A stretch of DNA of 63,347 nt, taken from Methanobacteriota archaeon. Lineage in GTDB: Archaea; Thermoplasmatota; Thermoplasmata; SG8-5. The stretch lies in NCBI GenBank assembly GCA_013791785.1, contig VMTD01000005.1, positions 1 to 63,347 on the forward strand, in the 5' to 3' direction. Positions within the stretch are counted from its first letter, which is position 1. Each line of letters starts with the position of its first letter. Below the pieces are notes generated by a model. It was not told the origin of the DNA and did no database searches. It saw only the letters and a program-made list of their open reading frames with translations. The position numbers and the translations under genes were made by a program. This document shows positions 3,725 through 63,347 of this stretch, piece by piece.

Positions 3725-4870
3725 TCAGCGCAGTGCTTCCCTTGCGATGACCATACGTTGAACTTCGCTGGTTCCCTCGTAAATCTCGGTTATCTTTGCC
3801 TCGCGATAGAAACGTTCCACGGCGTAATCCTTGGTGTATCCGTAGCCGCCGTGTATCTGAACGGCGTCGTTCGTCACTTCCCTGGCAATCCTGGAAGCGT
3901 ATAATTTGGCCATGGCGCTTTCCTTGGTGAAATTCTTCCCGGAGTCCTTCAGCCAGGCTGCCCTGTGTACCAGGAACCGCGCCGCAGAGACTTTGGTGGC
4001 CATCTCGGCCAACATCCACTGTATGGCCTGGAATTTGCCGATGGGGCGGCCGAACTGTTCTCTCTCCTTGGCGTATTTCACGGCCTCGTTCAGTGCGCCC
4101 TGGGCTATGCCAACGGCCTGTGCGGCGATACCCATTCTGCTGGCATCCAGCGTCGCCATTCCTAAATTGAAACCCCTGCCTTCTTCACCCAGCAAGTTTT
4201 CCTTTGAAATTCTGCAATTCTCAAAAACCAATTCCGTGGTGGCCGAGGCCCTTACTCCCATTTTATCCTCAATGGACCCGTAAGTGAAACCGGGGGTTCC
4301 TTTTTCCACAATTAATGCACTGAGTCCCTTTGTGCCCTTGGAGAGATCGGTGGATACTATCACAACAAGGATGTCAGCCTCCGAGCCAGAGGTGATGAAA
4401 ATCTTGTTGCCATTCAGTACATATTCATCTCCATTAAGAACGGCCGATGTCCTCACAGCACCTGCATCCGAACCAGCCCCCGGTTCGGTGAGGGCAAAAC
4501 CGCCCAGCTTCTGGCCTTTGGCCAGTGGGCGTAGAAATTGCTCTTTCTGGGCATCAGTGCCAAATTTATATATTGGGTAGCAACAGACTGAATTATGAAC
4601 CGCCATGATAACGCTGGTGGAACCGCAAACTTTGGCAATCTCCTCGATGGCCATCATGTAGGAGATGTCATCTATACCCGCGCCGCTCCATTCCTGCGGG
4701 ACGGTCATGCCCATGAGGTTGAGCGAGCCCATCTTGCGAATTATCTCCCAGGGGAACTCACCGCTGGCATCCAGTTCCTGGGCTACGGGTTTAATTTCCT
4801 TCTCGGCAAAGGCCCTGACCATGTTGCGGACCATGAGCTGTTCCTTGGTGTGGTCGAAGTTCATCGACAT
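3725..4870 (-). CDS. Acyl-CoA dehydrogenase (short/medium-chain type)
   Basis: GGFALTEPGAGSD and C-terminal YEGTSEVQRMVIAR motifs, about 380 aa. The first ATG is at 4870 (the ORF-track start at 4879 is TTG); the ATG at 4864 is also possible. Confidence 0.9.
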   Translation of the reverse strand: MSMNFDHTKEQLMVRNMVRAFAEKEIKPVAQELDASGEFPWEIIRKMGSLNLMGMTVPQEWSGAGIDDISYMMAIEEIAKVCGSTSVIMAVHNSVCCYPIYKFGTDAQKEQFLRPLAKGQKLGGFALTEPGAGSDAGAVRTSAVLNGDEYVLNGNKIFITSGSEADILVVIVSTDLSKGTKGLSALIVEKGTPGFTYGSIEDKMGVRASATTELVFENCRISKENLLGEEGRGFNLGMATLDASRMGIAAQAVGIAQGALNEAVKYAKEREQFGRPIGKFQAIQWMLAEMATKVSAARFLVHRAAWLKDSGKNFTKESAMAKLYASRIAREVTNDAVQIHGGYGYTKDYAVERFYREAKITEIYEGTSEVQRMVIAREALR

Positions 4871-4887
4871 CCGAAACAACTCATGTG

Positions 4888-58021: not shown

Positions 58022-58124
58022 GCCCCGCCTGTGAGGGCGGGGTTGTGCGCCTGATTGGACGAATCAGGCGAGGTGACACGATTACCGTCATCATCCTTTG
58101 GAAGCCTCGCCTGTAAGGGCGGGG
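58022..58124. other. Three GC-rich hairpins in a divergent intergenic region
   Basis: CCCCGCC-TGTGAG-GGCGGGG (58023-58042), CGCCTGATT-GGACG-AATCAGGCG (58048-58070) and CCTCGCC-TGTAAG-GGCGGGG (58105-58124). Confidence 0.5.
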
Positions 58125-58235: not shown

Positions 58236-58430
58236 ATGGACTGCAAAAAAGAACAGAATCTGAAGAACTGCAACTGCACCTATTCCTGCGGCAAGAAGGG
58301 CATGTGCTGCGAGTGCCTGCACTACCACCTGGCCATGAAGCAGCTTCCGGCGTGTTGTTTTCCTGCGGAGGCCGAGAAAACCTATGACCGGTCATTCGAG
58401 AAGTTCGCGGAAGCCTGGGGTTTACAGTAG
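58236..58430 (+). CDS. Small cysteine-rich protein (11 Cys within the first 41 of 64 aa)
   Basis: MDCKKEQNLKNCNCTYSCGKKGMCCECLHYHLAMKQLPACCF. Resembles a small conserved Cys-rich family, recalled as DUF6485 but unverified. Confidence 0.55.
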   Translation: MDCKKEQNLKNCNCTYSCGKKGMCCECLHYHLAMKQLPACCFPAEAEKTYDRSFEKFAEAWGLQ

Positions 58431-58468: not shown

Positions 58469-59215
58469 TTACATATACATGCCGCCGTTGATATCGAGGA
58501 CGTGGCCCGTGATGTAGGCCGCTTTATCCGAGGCGAGATACACGCAAGCGTAAGCGACTTCCTCAGGTTCGCCGAAACGGCCCAGCGGTATGCCCTTGAG
58601 GATCTTCTCCTTTACCTCTTCAGGGATTCCCTCCACCATGTCTGTCCGCGTGAATCCAGGTGCGATTGCGTTGACGGTGACCTTGCTCCTGGCCATCTCT
58701 CTGGCCAGGGCTTTTGTCATGCCTATTACACCCGCCTTCGCAGCGGCGTAGTTTACTTGCCCGATGTTTCCCATCTGACCCACTACCGATGCGATATTGA
58801 TGATTCGTCCGTACTTTGATTCGGTGATGTGATCGAGAAATACCTTGGAGCAGTTAAAATAGCCAGTCAGGTTCACATCGATTACCTGCTGCCATTCCGC
58901 CTCGTTCATCTTCGAGAACATTCTATCGATATTTATGCCAGCATTATTGACCAGAATGTCTATCTTCCCGAAATTCTTCTCGATGGCGGTTTTCATCTTC
59001 CGTACTTCCGTGATATTGCTCGTGCTTGCCGGATATACCCATGTGTTTCTGCCGAACTTCTCGATCTCTCTCGCGATATCGTCAGCCTTCTGCTCGCTCT
59101 TGATGAAGTTGACAACGACATCCGCTCCTTCCTTCGCTAGCCCCTTGGCTACCTCTCTCCCGATTCCCCTGCTAGCCCCCGTGACGAGGGCCTTTCTTCC
59201 GTCCAACAATCCCAT
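58469..59215 (-). CDS. SDR 3-oxoacyl reductase (FabG / acetoacetyl-CoA reductase PhaB-like)
   Basis: TGASRGIG, NNAG and YAAAKAG; 248 aa; next to the PHA genes. Confidence 0.88.
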   Translation of the reverse strand: MGLLDGRKALVTGASRGIGREVAKGLAKEGADVVVNFIKSEQKADDIAREIEKFGRNTWVYPASTSNITEVRKMKTAIEKNFGKIDILVNNAGINIDRMFSKMNEAEWQQVIDVNLTGYFNCSKVFLDHITESKYGRIINIASVVGQMGNIGQVNYAAAKAGVIGMTKALAREMARSKVTVNAIAPGFTRTDMVEGIPEEVKEKILKGIPLGRFGEPEEVAYACVYLASDKAAYITGHVLDINGGMYM

Positions 59216-59227
59216 GTTCAGTCACCT

Positions 59228-60013
59228 CTATTTGTTTTTATATTTAGGTTCTCTTTTCTCTAGAAATGCGTTCATTGCTTCTTTTACGTCGTATGTGTCG
59301 AAGAGCGCACCCCATGCCTGGATTTCGTAAGCCAGACCCGCATTGAGCGGTGTTTCTAGAGCCATGGCGATTGCCCTTTTTGCTGAGATGAGGGCTGGCC
59401 TGCTCTTCGCACTAAGAATTCCAGTGAGATGCAATATGGCAAGTTCCAATTGCTCATGCGGTACAATCATGTTCACGAGCCCAATGGACAGCGCTTCCTC
59501 TGCGGTTATGTGCTTTCCTGTGTATATCATTTCTTTGGCTTTACCCAGACCTACTATTCTGCATAATCTCTGTGTTCCGCCCCAGCCAGGTATTATCCCA
59601 ATATCGATTTCCGGCTGGGAAAAAACAGCATCCGGAGTTGCGATGCGGAGGTCGCAGGCACAGGAAAGTTCAACACCGCCTCCAAAAACGAATCCATTGA
59701 GAACAGCGATAACTGGAGGGAGGTCACGCTCAATTGTATGGCCCACTTTGTGCCCCAATCTCGCAAACTCGATTGCTTCGAGCACAGTTTTTTCGCGCAT
59801 CTCCCTGATGTCCGCACCGGCCGTGAATAGCTTCATGCTGTTGCTTCTCCAGACCACGACGCTGACGTTCGTATCCTTGGCAATCTTCTGGAAAGCGTTG
59901 TCGAGTTCCAAGAGCGTTTCTTGATTGAGAACATTGAGGCATTTCGGTCGGTTGAGTGTGACCGTGGCGACCGACCCCTTGATGTCTAACAGGATATTGT
60001 TGTATTCATCCAT
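59228..60013 (-). CDS. Enoyl-CoA hydratase/isomerase (crotonase fold)
   Basis: VATVTLNRPKCLNVLN, FTAGADI and FGGGVELSCACD. Start at MDEYNN, 4 nt after the phaC stop. Confidence 0.85.
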   Translation of the reverse strand: MDEYNNILLDIKGSVATVTLNRPKCLNVLNQETLLELDNAFQKIAKDTNVSVVVWRSNSMKLFTAGADIREMREKTVLEAIEFARLGHKVGHTIERDLPPVIAVLNGFVFGGGVELSCACDLRIATPDAVFSQPEIDIGIIPGWGGTQRLCRIVGLGKAKEMIYTGKHITAEEALSIGLVNMIVPHEQLELAILHLTGILSAKSRPALISAKRAIAMALETPLNAGLAYEIQAWGALFDTYDVKEAMNAFLEKREPKYKNK

Positions 60014-60017
60014 AAAA

Positions 60018-61079
60018 TCACTTCTCAGAATGCTTAGCAAGCCATTCGATTACTTCAGGCCACATGACCTTGTGGGCTTTTCTACCAACGGATATACCGA
60101 TGTGTCCTGATGGGTTCTCGAAGACTTTTGTATCTTTACTTTTAACGTGTGGCAAAAGGCCAAGGGTCGAGTCGGGCGGCACTAAATTGTCAGAGGTTCC
60201 CACAATCAGAAGAAGCGGCATGGTAATCTTCTTCAAGCTGACTGGTTTTCCAGCGACCATGAGTTCGCCTTTTACTAATTTGTTTCCCTGATATCCATCT
60301 TGAATCCATTCCACAAAGAACCTCGCAGGTATCGAGATGCCATCGTTATTCCACTTCTCCATCCTGAAGAAATTATCCACGTAGTCTTTATCATCCACTT
60401 TTTCTACCAAGCCCAGGTACTTCAGGTAAGTATTCTCCATAGGGTTCAAGAGCATAAATCCATTATTGAGTATATCTGGCGTGCAGTTTCCATACGCTTC
60501 GGTGAATCTCGACACGTCAAATATGTCCTTCTGTGTCCAGACGTGCAACGGACCCCCCTTGACATTGAAGTCGATTGGTGCGGACATGATTATGAGGTTC
60601 TTCACCCTCTTCGGGTATAGAGAACTGAATATCGTTGAAAAGTACCCGCCGATGCAATATCCTAACAGTGAGATTTGGGTGCAGGAATTTTCTTTGCAGA
60701 TGTGATCCACCGCATACCTCATGTAGAAATTTATATAATCATCCAAACAGGTGAATTTGTCCGCGTCAGAAGGCGAACCCCAATCTATGAGGTAGACATC
60801 GAATCCCTTTTCGAGGAATTTTCTGACTACGCTCCTGTCCTCCTGTAGGTCCAGGATATATGGTTTGTTGATGACCGCATAAACCATTAGCAGGGGCGTG
60901 CGGAATCCTTTCTTGGCTAGCGGTTTGAATCTGAGGAGACGCATTTTATTGTACTCAAAAACGACATCATATTCTGTCGTCTCACTGTTTATTGAATGCG
61001 GATTGGCAGTGAGATTAAACGCTTTGGCCAGCTTGAGATTGCCCTGCATTATTTCCTTTATAATGGCTTCGTTCATCAT
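60018..61079 (-). CDS. phaC: Class III poly(3-hydroxyalkanoate) synthase catalytic subunit
   Basis: 353-aa alpha/beta hydrolase with the lipase-box variant GYCIGG (catalytic Cys). Translationally coupled to the upstream small subunit gene. Confidence 0.85.
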   Translation of the reverse strand: MMNEAIIKEIMQGNLKLAKAFNLTANPHSINSETTEYDVVFEYNKMRLLRFKPLAKKGFRTPLLMVYAVINKPYILDLQEDRSVVRKFLEKGFDVYLIDWGSPSDADKFTCLDDYINFYMRYAVDHICKENSCTQISLLGYCIGGYFSTIFSSLYPKRVKNLIIMSAPIDFNVKGGPLHVWTQKDIFDVSRFTEAYGNCTPDILNNGFMLLNPMENTYLKYLGLVEKVDDKDYVDNFFRMEKWNNDGISIPARFFVEWIQDGYQGNKLVKGELMVAGKPVSLKKITMPLLLIVGTSDNLVPPDSTLGLLPHVKSKDTKVFENPSGHIGISVGRKAHKVMWPEVIEWLAKHSEK

Positions 61080-61588
61080 TTCCCTCCTTTGAGTTCTGAT
61101 ATCGCGTCCTGTAGGCGGTCCAGTTTTTTATTGAGATTATATAGATTGAAATTTATATCATCCAGGTCTTTCCTGGTAACAATGCCAAAGAGTTTAAGGT
61201 TCTCATCATTTGCCTTGTCCAGACGGATTTTCATGTCGGTTTTGTCTGCATATGCCTGTTTTAAATATGCCAGGAATGCCGGGGAAACAAGAAATTCCTT
61301 CAGCATATCAGAGTAGGCGCGCATGGCGGAAACGAATAATTCTTTCTGTTTCTGGAGTGACCCCTCATCCCCCTTCATGATCTGTGGCATTGCCATTGTA
61401 ATATCCATATTCATTTTTTCCCAGTAATTATTCATGATGTTTGTGAACAGTGCCGAGTTCGTCGTATCCATTGGGGAACCGGGTTTGATTGCTTCGTTCC
61501 AGTTCTTGAACATTTCCTCTTGGTACTTTCGCATCACTTCGATGAGTTCCTCCGTTTTATCGTTGTTTTTTGAATTAGAACTGGCCAT
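61076..61588 (-). CDS. phaE: Putative PHA synthase subunit PhaE (short archaeal type)
   Basis: 170-aa helical protein. ATGATGA overlap with phaC. C-terminal TRKDLDDINFNLYNLNKKLDRLQ. The position is as in archaeal phaEC operons. Confidence 0.6.
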   Translation of the reverse strand: MASSNSKNNDKTEELIEVMRKYQEEMFKNWNEAIKPGSPMDTTNSALFTNIMNNYWEKMNMDITMAMPQIMKGDEGSLQKQKELFVSAMRAYSDMLKEFLVSPAFLAYLKQAYADKTDMKIRLDKANDENLKLFGIVTRKDLDDINFNLYNLNKKLDRLQDAISELKGGK

Positions 61589-62460
61589 TAATTGTGGCCC
61601 CCTTCTGATTCTTTTGATTTCTTCTTGAGTTTCTTTTCTAACTCATTTACCTGAGCCCTAAGTTGGTTTACCTCATCCTCTAGGCTTGATGTGCTAGTAG
61701 ACGCTGTGAAAGAGTTGAAGGGAGTCCACCTGGATGCGTCGAAAAAACTAGCATAAAGTTTATCGTAATCTGTCTGGGGACCTATTCCCATGAGCGATTT
61801 CCTGATAGTTTCCATGGTCTGGAACCAGCTTTTCTGGAACTCCCAGATTGCGTTCCGGGAGACATCTCCGTAATTGGCATTCCGCTCATCTTCTAAATTG
61901 GAATACATTTCCCGCAAGCTTCTTTCGATGGTTCCTAGGTGGGGCAGGTTGGGGTCCATATTCGAAATGGTTGAGTCCATCTTTTCTTTCAACTCAGATA
62001 CGATGTCGTTCAACGCCTGGTACTCTACCCTGCTTTCCGTTATGTAATCGCTTACCAGTTGCATCATTGTCGAGGTAAGCTCGGACCAGGAGGTGTAAAT
62101 ACATTCATTGCCTCCATTGCTCTTGGAATCGAGCAAGGCGATGACGTTTTCCGCATGTTTGGTCCACATTTTCTCCAACGCGACATATGGGGCATTTCCC
62201 CCCTCCAATATTTGTATCATCCTGGCATTAATTTTATTCTGGTAATTCTTCCAGACATTGTAGATTTCCAGGTAGGGCTCTTTGTTCTCGCTGAGTATAT
62301 CTGTCATAAGTTTATTGACGGGTTCGGATTCCGCCAACCATTTTGTTGAGATATCTTCGTATTGTTTCGTTACGTTCTTGATGCCCATCTGTATCTGATT
62401 CGCAATATTTTTTTGCAATTCGTTCCAAACGTCATTGAAAGATTGATTTGTTTCGTTCAT
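61588..62460 (-). CDS. Phasin-like / PHA-granule-associated helical protein, paralog 1
   Basis: 290 aa. W/Q/N-rich helical repeats (FNDVWNELQKNIANQ..., IYNVWKNYQNKINARM) and a C-terminal coiled coil. TAATG overlap with phaE. Confidence 0.6.
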   Translation of the reverse strand: MNETNQSFNDVWNELQKNIANQIQMGIKNVTKQYEDISTKWLAESEPVNKLMTDILSENKEPYLEIYNVWKNYQNKINARMIQILEGGNAPYVALEKMWTKHAENVIALLDSKSNGGNECIYTSWSELTSTMMQLVSDYITESRVEYQALNDIVSELKEKMDSTISNMDPNLPHLGTIERSLREMYSNLEDERNANYGDVSRNAIWEFQKSWFQTMETIRKSLMGIGPQTDYDKLYASFFDASRWTPFNSFTASTSTSSLEDEVNQLRAQVNELEKKLKKKSKESEGGHN

Positions 62461-62480
62461 TGTTATCTCCCGCCTTTATA

Positions 62481-63074
62481 CTAAATTTCGTTGGTCGCTT
62501 GCTTCGCCAGAATTTCATTCATCTTCTTGGTGAATTCCATCCAGGTGGATTCGATTGAATTGTATTCGCGCGCCATGGCAGCATTATCCTTCTCGAAGAG
62601 GTCTGCGGTGTACTTGGGCAAATCCTCGTACATTGTAGCAAGGTTCTGAAGGTGATTCTTCTGTTCCTCCCCTCGTGAACTGGCTACTTTATTCATAATA
62701 TCGGTGAAAACACTCCGCTTGTCGAATAGTTCCGCATACTGGTTGATGTTCTTCCGCGTGGTTTCCAGAAGATTTGTATTGATCTTGGCGTATTGCTCTT
62801 TCCAGAGGTTGGCCAACTCTCGGTAGTCATTGTCGCCAATGTCCTTGCTGACATTCTCATGTACGCTGGCATTGAATGTTGCCCAATTTTTTCCAATATT
62901 CATATATTGTTTCTGCTGGGCATCAATCGCTTTGTTCATCTGATTGAACATGTCTAGTTGCTGTTCCATCCAGATATTCATAATGTCTTCCATGTTCTCC
63001 CCTGAAGCGTTTTTCTTCTCTTCATTGCACTTTTCGTCAGCTCTAGGCTTTTCATTGACTTTCTTCTTTACCAT
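62481..63074 (-). CDS. Phasin-like / PHA-granule-associated helical protein, paralog 2
   Basis: 197 aa. IMNIWMEQQLDMFNQ... and LANLWKEQYAKINTNL parallel paralog 1. Strong GGAGG RBS. Confidence 0.6.
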   Translation of the reverse strand: MVKKKVNEKPRADEKCNEEKKNASGENMEDIMNIWMEQQLDMFNQMNKAIDAQQKQYMNIGKNWATFNASVHENVSKDIGDNDYRELANLWKEQYAKINTNLLETTRKNINQYAELFDKRSVFTDIMNKVASSRGEEQKNHLQNLATMYEDLPKYTADLFEKDNAAMAREYNSIESTWMEFTKKMNEILAKQATNEI

Positions 63075-63295
63075 TTTCTTTCCTCCCTCATGTGCGTGAA
63101 AAATACTATAGATTCGTATTTATCACAAATATAACCTTCACACTTGAAAATCTATTATTATGTCAAGGTATATGTAGTTTTCTATGGTGACACATGTATA
63201 TGGGTCGCACAAGTACATCATCAATTAACCGAAATTAGGTAATGTCCTCGATTGTACCGCATAACTAATATACTTGATGTTGCATATATGTTCTT

Positions 63296-63347
63296 ATGGC
63301 GAGACCACGAAGTGAAGTAAAAATTACGTGCCAGATTCCCACGTGCA
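63296..63347 (+). CDS. 5' end of a divergent ORF (MARPRSEVKITCQIPTC...), cut by the window edge; possibly a small AbrB/SpoVT-type regulator
   Basis: Only 17 codons are visible. The guess rests on position (divergent from the PHA cluster) and a weak K-I-T-x-Q-I-P pattern. Confidence 0.25.
   Translation, partial: MARPRSEVKITCQIPTC

What the first reader, a model, noticed from the sequence alone, without database searches (positions are those of the whole stretch)
58469..63074. Complete class III PHA synthesis cluster in an apparently non-halophilic archaeal context
Six co-directional, tightly packed genes: two phasin-like proteins, phaE-like, phaC (GYCIGG lipase box), a crotonase-type enoyl-CoA hydratase and a FabG/PhaB-type reductase. 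The overlaps are TAATG and ATGATGA, and the phaC-to-hydratase gap is 4 nt. Archaeal PHA synthesis is best known from haloarchaea (and reported in some Thaumarchaeota). The surrounding genes here do not look haloarchaeal; the proteins are not conspicuously acidic. The phaC-to-phasin part looks somewhat AT-richer than the window average on sampled lines, which hints at acquisition by transfer.
Basis: partly seen in the sequence, partly recalled or inferred. Interest (0 to 1): 0.65.

Follow-up and report, generated by a model that had tools for sequence, protein, structure and literature searches.

The report
PHA storage-polyester operon in groundwater Thermoplasmata
An uncultured, non-salt-loving, non-methanogenic groundwater archaeon carries an intact six-gene operon for the storage polyester PHA; the synthase is ordinary, but its helper genes (duplicated PhaE-like coat proteins and a dedicated crotonase) differ from the haloarchaeal and bacterial versions.

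Summary
Six co-directional minus-strand genes lie at 58469-63074 with the stated junctions (TAATG, ATGATGA, 4-nt gap) and a GYCIGG box.

- **PhaC** passes the curated class III model (367.9 vs 365.3 bits) and keeps Cys142/Asp297/His326.
- **The 170-aa protein** is a short PhaE by profile-profile comparison (99% to long Thermoplasmata PhaE, 96% to haloarchaeal PhaE).
- **The two "phasin-like" ORFs** match no known phasin family. They are PhaE paralogues with a 29-residue Trp repeat and amphipathic helices.
- **The host** is an SG8-5/UBA147-type Thermoplasmata from groundwater. It has no McrA and its proteome is not acidic.
- **phaA** lies elsewhere, in a thiolase-hbd-crotonase operon on contig C96.
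- **The transfer hint fails.** GC, GC3 and codon usage are normal for the genome. PhaC nests in a Thermoplasmata-only radiation with its same-order relatives (100/100).
- **Distribution.** Class III PhaC occurs in 45 of 401 Thermoplasmata species genomes. A crotonase directly follows phaC in 19 of 28 Thermoplasmata loci and in none of 67 haloarchaeal or bacterial loci.
- **Literature.** The papers I could search do not mention PHA genes in this class.

Verdict: a real, lineage-specific variant of a known system. No polymer has been shown.

The parts
62481..63074 (-). ORF197: PhaE-like Trp-repeat helical protein, a candidate granule-coat protein. It is the first gene of the operon.
   Evidence: No Pfam or NCBIfam family. 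N-terminal domain is 27% identical to ORF290, E 5e-7. Family profile vs the ORF290 family: 97.8%, E 7e-13. Vs long PhaE: 88.7%. Trp at 35/64/91, spaced 29/27 residues. Orthologues in L001/L002 at 75-95% identity.
61588..62460 (-). ORF290: PhaE-like Trp-repeat helical protein, a candidate granule-coat protein. Its stop overlaps the PhaE start (TAATG).
   Evidence: No curated family. hhalign vs long Thermoplasmata PhaE: 99.4%, E 1.6e-21, 249 columns. AF2 model is all-helical, pLDDT 72. Trp at 12/41/70/99/125. Helix 2-58 has hydrophobic moment z=4.9 against shuffles. Of 56 family members, 13 hit PF09712, 9 Apolipoprotein, 8 ApoLp-III and 3 each the two phasin models.
61076..61588 (-). Short PhaE (170 aa), the non-catalytic partner of PhaC. 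It is translationally coupled to phaC through the ATGA overlap.
   Evidence: PF09712 23.7 bits (cut-off 25.7) and TIGR01834 24 bits, C-terminal part only. hhalign vs long PhaE: 99.0%, E 2e-18, to the C-terminal half. Vs haloarchaeal PhaE: 95.8%, E 7e-9. Same size and same 4-nt overlap as haloarchaeal PhaE.
60018..61079 (-). PhaC, the class III PHA synthase catalytic subunit (353 aa).
   Evidence: TIGR01836 367.9 bits vs cut-off 365.3. Cys142 (GYCIGG), Asp297 and His326 align with the catalytic triad of C. necator PhaC 5hz2. Sits in a 100/100 clade with same-genus and same-order PhaCs.
59228..60013 (-). Crotonase-type short-chain enoyl-CoA hydratase (261 aa from the ATG at 60013).
   Evidence: PF00378 206 bits. 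Best solved relative is Clostridium Crt 5z7r, E 1.5e-66, and both catalytic Glu are conserved (E115, E135). It is one of 5 crotonase paralogues in the genome. A crotonase lies directly downstream of phaC in 19/28 Thermoplasmata loci, 0/38 haloarchaeal and 0/29 bacterial loci.
58469..59215 (-). FabG-type (R)-specific 3-ketoacyl-CoA reductase, inferred to act as PhaB (acetoacetyl-CoA reductase).
   Evidence: TIGR01830 308.7 > 297.75. TIGR01829 (AcAcCoA_reduct) 288 < 302. Top solved relatives are (3R)-hydroxyacyl-CoA dehydrogenase, FabG and acetoacetyl-CoA reductases. A FabG homologue lies within 4 kb of phaC in 73 of 95 loci across archaea and bacteria.
63075..63236 (-). AT-rich upstream region of the operon, with a GAGGGAGG ribosome-binding site 8 nt before the ORF197 ATG. 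Presumed promoter region.
   Evidence: Read directly from the sequence. About 110 nt are 72-75% conserved upstream of ORF197 in L001/L002.
63237..63347 (.). Dispersed repeat at the contig end. It explains why the assembly breaks here. Not part of the operon.
   Evidence: 99-100% identical copies at C12:15555-15668 and C1:1-109. A separate high-depth contig overlaps here in run X1.

Best explanation
The six genes form one operon for making polyhydroxyalkanoate (most likely poly-3-hydroxybutyrate) storage granules. The host is an anaerobic, non-methanogenic, non-halophilic Thermoplasmata archaeon of the SG8-5/UBA147 lineage that lives in groundwater. Inferred pathway: a thiolase encoded on contig C96 condenses two acetyl-CoA to acetoacetyl-CoA. 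The operon's FabG-type reductase reduces this to (R)-3-hydroxybutyryl-CoA. The PhaE-PhaC heteromer polymerises it through the Cys142-Asp297-His326 triad. The operon's crotonase, together with the (S)-specific 3-hydroxyacyl-CoA dehydrogenase on C96, opens a second entry route. Crotonyl-CoA from amino-acid or fatty-acid fermentation would pass through (S)-3HB-CoA and acetoacetyl-CoA to the (R)-monomer, so the polymer can act as a carbon and reductant sink. ORF197 and ORF290, plus two more paralogues on C12, are PhaE-derived amphipathic helical proteins. I infer that they coat the granule in place of the unrelated phasins of bacteria and haloarchaea. Shown: gene identities, catalytic residues, homology relations, conservation and distribution. 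Inferred: enzyme substrates, polymer formation, granule binding and physiological role.
For: PhaC passes the curated class III model and keeps the catalytic triad. PhaE homology is shown by profile-profile comparison, and the gene is translationally coupled to phaC. The whole six-gene order is conserved in same-genus genomes L001/L002 and in same-order genomes G003/G004. The genome has thiolase-hbd-crotonase on C96. In relative L006/L094 thiolase-hbd-crotonase follows directly after phaC-crotonase in a single locus. The crotonase keeps both catalytic Glu, and the reductase belongs to the (R)-specific FabG/PhaB group. Crotonase linkage to phaC is found in 19/28 Thermoplasmata loci. The genome has three acyl-CoA dehydrogenases that could supply enoyl-CoA. 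ORF290 and ORF197 are PhaE paralogues with amphipathic helices, and family members give apolipoprotein and phasin matches. A sediment metatranscriptome holds a 285-nt contig spanning the phaE/phaC junction at about 94% identity. Codon usage fits the host.
Against: There is no biochemical or microscopic evidence for polymer in this lineage. PhaC passes the curated cut-off by only 2.6 bits and lies on a long branch. PhaE and the reductase each fall below one curated threshold (PF09712; TIGR01829). A crotonase yields the (S)-enantiomer, which PhaC does not use, so its role depends on enzymes encoded elsewhere. No MaoC/PhaJ, patatin-type or esterase-type depolymerase was found, so mobilisation is unexplained. 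The fold search for ORF290 gave only generic helical bundles. The RNA evidence comes from a relative, and DNA carry-over is not excluded.
Confidence: 0.8

Rival explanations
1. The cluster was recently acquired by horizontal transfer from haloarchaea or bacteria and is foreign to this genome.
For: The phaC-to-ORF197 part has GC 0.434 against 0.488 for the genome. Distribution is patchy: 4/8 in the genus, 7/22 in the order, 45/401 in the class. A same-family genome (G011) carries a differently arranged cluster whose PhaC is only 44% identical. The contig ends in a dispersed repeat.
Against: The GC value is at the 13th percentile of genome windows. GC3 and synonymous-codon likelihood of all six genes lie at the 17th-99th percentile of the genome's long ORFs. 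L001 shows the same GC gradient. PhaC forms a 100/100 clade with same-genus and same-order genomes, and its sister (97/97) is made of other Thermoplasmata. Bacteria (96/96) and Halobacteria (100/100) are separate. Flanking genes (parvulin, GNAT) are conserved next to the cluster in UBA147. Older exchange or differential loss within Thermoplasmata is not excluded.
Confidence: 0.07
2. The crotonase and reductase are ordinary beta-oxidation or fatty-acid-metabolism genes that merely sit beside phaEC. Alternatively, the PhaC-like protein acts on another thioester or ester substrate and makes no storage polyester.
For: The reductase scores best as FabG. The genome has four other crotonases and three acyl-CoA dehydrogenases. 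Archaeal CoA-dependent fatty-acid synthesis using SDR reductases has been proposed (bioRxiv 10.1101/2024.07.05.601840). PhaC is only marginally above its cut-off.
Against: Spacings of 4-12 nt and conserved order across genera and families. FabG-phaC linkage is seen in 73/95 loci of three phyla, and crotonase-phaC linkage in 19/28 Thermoplasmata loci. The PHA synthase triad is intact and a PhaE partner is present. The archaeal fatty-acid synthase described uses a MaoC dehydratase, which this genome lacks.
Confidence: 0.08
3. ORF197 and ORF290 are not coat proteins. They are extra synthase subunits or regulators, for example alternative PhaE-like partners that tune PhaC activity or priming.
For: They are homologous to PhaE over nearly its full length. 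Long PhaE proteins of other Thermoplasmata carry the same Trp-repeat N-terminal half fused to the PhaE core, so here the two halves may work as separate chains. They have no significant match to any phasin model.
Against: They lack the conserved C-terminal PhaE core motif region that aligns confidently in true PhaE. The genome has four such paralogues, which fits abundant structural proteins better than stoichiometric subunits. The helices are amphipathic and family members match apolipoprotein models.
Confidence: 0.25

Closest known systems
Haloarchaeal class III (subtype IIIA) PHA cluster, maoC-phaR-phaP-phaE-phaC with separate phaB (Haloferax mediterranei, Haloarcula)
   Same: An archaeal PhaC with the Cys-Asp-His triad. 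A short PhaE of about 170-185 aa directly upstream with a 4-nt overlap. A FabG-type reductase serves as PhaB nearby. In the trees the haloarchaeal PhaCs are closer to Thermoplasmata PhaCs than most bacterial ones are.
   Different: PhaC here has 353 aa, without the C-terminal extension that brings haloarchaeal PhaC to 440-530 aa. There is no PhaR, PhaP or MaoC/PhaJ in the cluster or the genome. PhaE-like paralogues and a crotonase take their places. The proteome is non-acidic and the habitat is groundwater.
Bacterial class III PHA synthase PhaEC (Allochromatium vinosum, Synechocystis; model TIGR01836/TIGR01834)
   Same: A two-subunit synthase. PhaC is about 350 aa and passes the same curated model. 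phaE and phaC are adjacent.
   Different: Bacterial PhaE is about 320-360 aa (the Pfam profile has 311 positions). Only the last ~80-150 residues are matched here. The N-terminal-like Trp-repeat part is encoded as separate paralogous genes. Bacterial PhaCs form a separate clade (96/96).
Predicted PhaEC operons of other non-halophilic archaea: Ca. Methanoperedens and Thaumarchaeota (PMC8561730), Archaeoglobaceae (bioRxiv 10.1101/2025.05.06.652502)
   Same: Class III PhaC plus PhaE in an operon in a non-halophilic archaeon, some of them strict anaerobes, recognised by the same models.
   Different: The host class differs. The 2025 screen found no PhaC in the Thermoplasmata genomes it covered. 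The Archaeoglobaceae clusters are described with phaR-phaP like haloarchaea, and these are absent here. I did not compare sequences with those lineages directly.
PHA operons noted earlier in this scan in halophilic and soil Thermoplasmatota (e1-1240044, e1-1240046, e1-1408415)
   Same: The same class of host, a PhaE-PhaC core, and PhaE-like Trp-repeat paralogues upstream.
   Different: Those loci are in other genomes and orders (two reductases and no crotonase in one; lineage-specific small proteins in the other). The locus studied here belongs to a freshwater, subsurface SG8-5-type lineage with the paralogues-PhaE-PhaC-crotonase-FabG order.

Membership tests
Class III PHA synthase, catalytic subunit PhaC (TIGR01836) | Score at or above the curated whole-protein cut-off | tested here: met
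   367.9 bits vs 365.3, which is marginal. Other Thermoplasmata PhaCs reach 464 bits.
Class III PHA synthase, catalytic subunit PhaC (TIGR01836) | Lipase-like box G-x-C-x-G-G with the catalytic Cys, plus the catalytic Asp and His | tested here: met
   GYCIGG (C142), D297 and H326 align with the Cys (GFCVGG), Asp and His positions of C. necator PhaC 5hz2. These are C319/D480/H508 by the published numbering, which I cite from memory.
Class III PHA synthase, catalytic subunit PhaC (TIGR01836) | Size of about 40 kDa without the class I/II N-terminal domain, with a PhaE partner encoded adjacently | tested here: met
   353 aa. The PhaE homologue lies directly upstream with an ATGA overlap.
Class III PHA synthase, catalytic subunit PhaC (TIGR01836) | Polymerises short-chain (R)-3-hydroxyacyl-CoA | not testable with these tools
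   Needs an enzyme assay or heterologous expression.
PhaE subunit (PF09712 / TIGR01834) | Score at or above the curated cut-off | tested here: not met
   PF09712 23.7 vs 25.7. TIGR01834 24 vs 155. Only the C-terminal part matches.
PhaE subunit (PF09712 / TIGR01834) | Homology to bona fide PhaE shown by profile-profile comparison | tested here: met
   99.0% (E 2e-18) to Thermoplasmata PhaE proteins that pass PF09712 at 38-45 bits. 95.8% (E 7e-9) to haloarchaeal PhaE.
Haloarchaeal subtype IIIA PHA cluster | PhaC with a long C-terminal extension | tested here: not met
   353 aa against 440-530 aa in 38 haloarchaeal loci.
Haloarchaeal subtype IIIA PHA cluster | AbrB-type PhaR and PhaP phasin encoded upstream, with MaoC-type PhaJ nearby | tested here: not met
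   PhaR and PhaP were found in 33-34 haloarchaeal loci, in no Thermoplasmata locus, and not in this genome. There is no MaoC domain in the genome.
Phasins (PF05597, PF09361, haloarchaeal PhaP) | Significant sequence match to a phasin family | tested here: not met
   No phasin model appears for ORF290 or ORF197 even at E<=10. hhalign to haloarchaeal PhaP gives below 1%. Only 3 of 56 wider family members touch each phasin model.
Phasins (PF05597, PF09361, haloarchaeal PhaP) | Amphipathic helical protein encoded beside the synthase | tested here: met
   All-helical AF2 model. Hydrophobic moment z=4.9, 2.9 and 2.5 for three helices. The genes are the first two of the operon.
Phasins (PF05597, PF09361, haloarchaeal PhaP) | Binds PHA granules and controls their number and size | not testable with these tools
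   Needs localisation and deletion experiments.
Crotonase / (S)-specific short-chain enoyl-CoA hydratase | ECH_1 fold with the two catalytic glutamates | tested here: met
   PF00378 206 bits. E115 and E135 align with the catalytic Glu pair of Clostridium Crt 5z7r. It falls below the NCBIfam subfamily cut-off (286.8 vs 394).
Acetoacetyl-CoA reductase PhaB | Curated PhaB/AcAcCoA reductase model passed | tested here: not met
   TIGR01829 288 vs 302.1. NF042966 202 vs 436. It passes the FabG model TIGR01830 (308.7 vs 297.75). The PhaB role is inferred from synteny and from haloarchaeal precedent, which I cite from memory.

The most novel reading that the evidence does not exclude
Thermoplasmata carry their own, third archaeal version of the class III PHA machinery. 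In it, duplicated PhaE-derived 29-residue Trp-repeat proteins have become the granule coat, forming a phasin family that arose from a synthase subunit. A dedicated crotonase ties polymer synthesis to the crotonyl-CoA pool of fermentation. Under this reading, strictly anaerobic peptide- or fatty-acid-fermenting subsurface archaea use PHA as a redox and carbon buffer. About one in nine species of the class would share the trait, and it is so far absent from the literature I could search.
Probability: 0.4. Interest if true: 0.6.

Novelty: new variant of a known kind. Interest (0 to 1): 0.45.

Why it matters
PHA storage in archaea has been studied almost only in haloarchaea, with gene-level reports for Thaumarchaeota, Methanoperedens and Archaeoglobaceae. 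This finding matters for four reasons.

1. It places an intact, conserved and probably expressed PHA operon in a widespread anaerobic subsurface lineage (SG8-5/UBA147). Published metabolic reconstructions of that lineage do not mention carbon storage.
2. It shows that roughly 11% of sampled Thermoplasmata species carry such clusters.
3. A polyester sink would change how carbon and reducing equivalents are budgeted for these fermenters in groundwater and sediments.
4. The PhaE-derived coat candidates bear on an open question: what PhaE actually does and how phasins originate. The compact 353-aa PhaC with a 170-aa PhaE is a small, non-halophilic archaeal synthase that can be tested directly in standard laboratory hosts.

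Tried and rejected
1. Pfam and NCBIfam on ORF290 and ORF197, also at E<=10, gave only coiled-coil noise.
2. The word-indexed homologue search for ORF290 returned only 6 close, unnamed relatives.
3. AlphaFold plus Foldseek against PDB for ORF290 gave only designed three-helix bundles and BAR-like domains, with TM-scores of 0.53 or less. This is not diagnostic.
4. Haloarchaeal PhaP and PhaR were sought in the Thermoplasmata loci and in the genome, and none were found. hhalign of the paralogues to PhaP gave below 1%.
5. PhaJ (MaoC), patatin-type and esterase-type depolymerases were sought in the genome, and none were found.
6. Recent horizontal transfer was tested by GC, GC3, codon usage and two trees, and rejected.
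7. A methanogen host was rejected: there is no McrA at 92.7% completeness.
8. Five of the six literature searches looked for PHA in Thermoplasmata, Thermoplasmatota, Methanomassiliicoccales or SG8-5 and found no report. One search served to find the lineage paper. Subscription-only papers are not covered.
9. Public source names for PhaC, PhaE and ORF197: none are on record in the collection.
10. RNA evidence amounts to one weak metatranscriptome holder, from a relative rather than from this organism.

Full report
**1. What is there**

The ORF listing confirms six minus-strand ORFs between 58469 and 63074. The window is an entire 63,347-bp contig (C136) of a 2.62-Mb, 145-contig assembly that is 92.7% complete with 0.34% contamination.

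- **Junctions.** The last one holds if the crotonase starts at the ATG at 60013, as its orthologue in L001 does.
- **Other gaps.** The remaining gaps are 12 nt (crotonase/FabG) and 20 nt (ORF197/ORF290). Shine-Dalgarno-like GGAGG/GGTGA motifs precede the genes.

**2. Gene identities**

- **PhaC (353 aa).** It scores 367.9 bits on TIGR01836, just over the curated 365.3. Aligned to the C. necator PhaC structure 5hz2, it keeps the catalytic Cys (GYCIGG, C142), Asp (D297) and His (H326).
- **The 170-aa protein.** It falls just under the Pfam PhaE threshold (23.7 vs 25.7, C-terminal part only). A profile of it and four orthologues aligns to long Thermoplasmata PhaE proteins, which themselves pass PF09712 at 38-45 bits. 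That match has 99.0% probability (E 2e-18) and covers their C-terminal half. It also aligns to haloarchaeal PhaE at 95.8% (E 7e-9). Haloarchaeal PhaE has the same size (about 180 aa) and the same 4-nt overlap with phaC.
- **The hydratase.** It is a crotonase (PF00378, 206 bits). Its closest solved relative is Clostridium Crt 5z7r, and both catalytic glutamates are present.
- **The reductase.** It passes the FabG model but not the PhaB/acetoacetyl-CoA reductase models. Its solved relatives are (R)-specific ketoacyl and acetoacetyl-CoA reductases.

**3. The two "phasin-like" ORFs**

- **No curated family.** Neither ORF matches any curated family, even at lenient thresholds.
- **Related to each other and to PhaE.** They share an N-terminal domain (27% identity, E 5e-7). 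A 12-sequence profile of the ORF290 family aligns with long PhaE over 249 columns at 99.4% probability (E 1.6e-21). The ORF197 family aligns with the ORF290 family at 97.8% and with long PhaE at 88.7%.
- **Not haloarchaeal PhaP.** Both are unrelated to haloarchaeal PhaP (below 1%).
- **Repeat and structure.** ORF290 carries a 29-residue repeat marked by Trp at 12/41/70/99/125. AlphaFold predicts long helices (pLDDT 72), and several of them are significantly amphipathic.
- **Family size and composition.** An exhaustive profile search finds only 117 representative clusters among 1.84 billion proteins. Of 56 near-full-length members, 13 are recognisable PhaE, 9 match Apolipoprotein, 8 match ApoLp-III, and 3 each match the two phasin models.
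- **More copies.** Two more paralogues lie on contig C12 of the same genome. Their orthologues sit directly after FabG in L001.

So these are PhaE-derived amphipathic proteins. A granule-coat role is an inference. An extra-subunit role remains possible.

**4. The host**

- **Lineage.** The closest PhaCs (86-88% identity) are in Thermoplasmata MAGs, including Methanomassiliicoccales archaeon UBA147. Zinke et al. place UBA147 in order SG8-5, an anaerobic, non-methanogenic, peptide-degrading lineage. Their text never mentions PHA.
- **Not a methanogen.** The genome has no McrA.
- **Habitat.** The cluster recurs almost word for word in groundwater metagenomes from several studies.
- **Not a halophile.** The median pI of long ORFs in the genome is 6.05, with D+E at 12.3%.
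- **Not a binning artefact.** Flanking genes (parvulin, GNAT) are conserved next to the cluster in UBA147.

**5. The rest of the pathway**

- **Thiolase module.** A thiolase-hbd-crotonase operon lies on C96.
- **A single-locus version.** In relative L006/L094 the order is FabG, PhaE-like, PhaE, PhaC, crotonase, thiolase, hbd, crotonase, all in one locus. This ties the two modules together.
- **Other genes.** The genome has five crotonases, three acyl-CoA dehydrogenases, and no MaoC/PhaJ.
- **Depolymerase.** No patatin-type or esterase-type PHA depolymerase was recognised.

**6. Conservation and distribution**

- **Gene order.** The six-gene order is identical in L001 and L002 (same genus). It is also the same in G003 and G004, which belong to the same order but another family. 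There the identities are PhaC 54%, crotonase 63% and FabG 70%.
- **A second arrangement.** A same-family genome from another genus (G011) and many other Thermoplasmata use the order FabG, PhaE-like, PhaE, PhaC, crotonase.
- **Crotonase linkage.** A crotonase directly follows phaC in 19 of 28 distinct Thermoplasmata loci. It does so in none of 38 haloarchaeal or 29 bacterial loci (with L001-L003 added).
- **Frequency.** TIGR01836-type PhaC occurs in 7/22 species genomes of the order and in 45/401 of the class, covering 23/105 genera.

**7. Transfer?**

- **Composition.** GC of 60018-63074 is 0.434, at the 13th percentile of 3-kb genome windows. GC3 and synonymous-codon likelihood of all six genes are ordinary for the genome. 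L001 shows the same gradient.
- **Phylogeny.** In a careful IQ-TREE analysis (55 PhaCs), the window groups with its genus and with G003/G004 (100/100). The sister clade consists of other Thermoplasmata (97/97). Bacteria (96/96) and Halobacteria (100/100) are separate, and 24 of 29 Thermoplasmata sequences lie together (79/77, weak) (quick tree).
- **Conclusion.** Recent import is rejected. Older exchange or loss within the class is likely, given the patchiness and the two arrangements within one family.

**8. Expression**

One sediment metatranscriptome holds a 285-nt contig that covers 60890-61173, across the phaE/phaC junction, with 16 mismatches. This suggests that a close relative co-transcribes the pair. 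It is weak evidence.

**9. Comparison and novelty**

- **The core.** It is an ordinary class III PhaEC synthase.
- **Against haloarchaea.** This cluster lacks the PhaC C-terminal extension, PhaR, PhaP and MaoC.
- **Against bacteria.** Its PhaE is half-length.
- **Literature.** PHA genes in non-halophilic archaea are already reported for Thaumarchaeota, Ca. Methanoperedens and Archaeoglobaceae. No paper in the searchable library reports them in Thermoplasmata, and one screen reported none there.
- **Earlier notes of this scan.** They describe comparable operons and PhaE-like paralogues in other Thermoplasmatota. I reached the paralogy result here independently.

**Verdict**

This is a real operon and a lineage-specific variant of a known system. 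It is of moderate interest, and no polymer has been demonstrated.

Noticed in passing
window 63237-63347; also C12:15555-15668 and C1:1-109 of the same genome: The last ~110 bp of the contig are a dispersed repeat (99-100% identical copies). Run X1 has a separate high-depth contig that overlaps here. This is probably why the assembly breaks 273 bp upstream of the operon. It may belong to the MITE family noted earlier for this window.
   Followed up: partly
L001:4388-5791 (-) and L002:4368-5879 (-): In the same-genus relatives, a 467-503-aa HTH(ArsR)-triple-PAS protein is transcribed divergently from the operon's first gene. It is a candidate sensor-regulator of the PHA operon. In the window its expected position lies beyond the contig end.
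   Followed up: partly
G000:C12:30491-32283 (-) = L089:5489-7284: Two further PhaE-like paralogues (306 and 292 aa) are 80-85% identical to the pair that follows FabG in L001. Here they lie on another contig next to unannotated genes and a pyridine-nucleotide-disulphide oxidoreductase. The PHA locus has therefore been rearranged within the genus.
   Followed up: partly
L090 (G011, same family) versus window and L091/L092 (G003/G004, same order): Two different PHA cluster arrangements, with PhaC only about 44% identical, occur within one taxonomic family. The window's arrangement is shared with a different family of the order. This suggests either two ancient cluster types with differential loss, or replacement within the class.
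   Followed up: partly
L099, L101, L105 (Thermoplasmata family f18) in the tree: PhaCs of one Thermoplasmata family group as sister to all Halobacteria (80/85). Their clusters carry two FabG genes and no crotonase. This could bear on where haloarchaea obtained their PHA genes.
   Followed up: no
L096 and L097 (G183, family f29): One Thermoplasmata genome holds two complete copies of the FabG, PhaE-like, PhaE, PhaC, crotonase cluster on different contigs.
   Followed up: no
window 58027-58101: Contigs in groundwater runs X1 and X5 show alternative forms that skip 55-62 bp within the GC-rich hairpin region between the parvulin gene and the small Cys-rich ORF. The repeat copy number varies in the population.
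   Followed up: no
window 3725-4879 (-): An acyl-CoA dehydrogenase (PF00441, 193 bits) lies on the same contig, 54 kb from the PHA operon. It is one of three in the genome.
   Followed up: no
window 58236-58430 (+): A 64-aa Cys-rich ORF is transcribed in the opposite direction to the operon and lies just beyond the 3' end of the FabG gene. It is absent at this position in L001, where two PhaE-like paralogues follow FabG.
   Followed up: no
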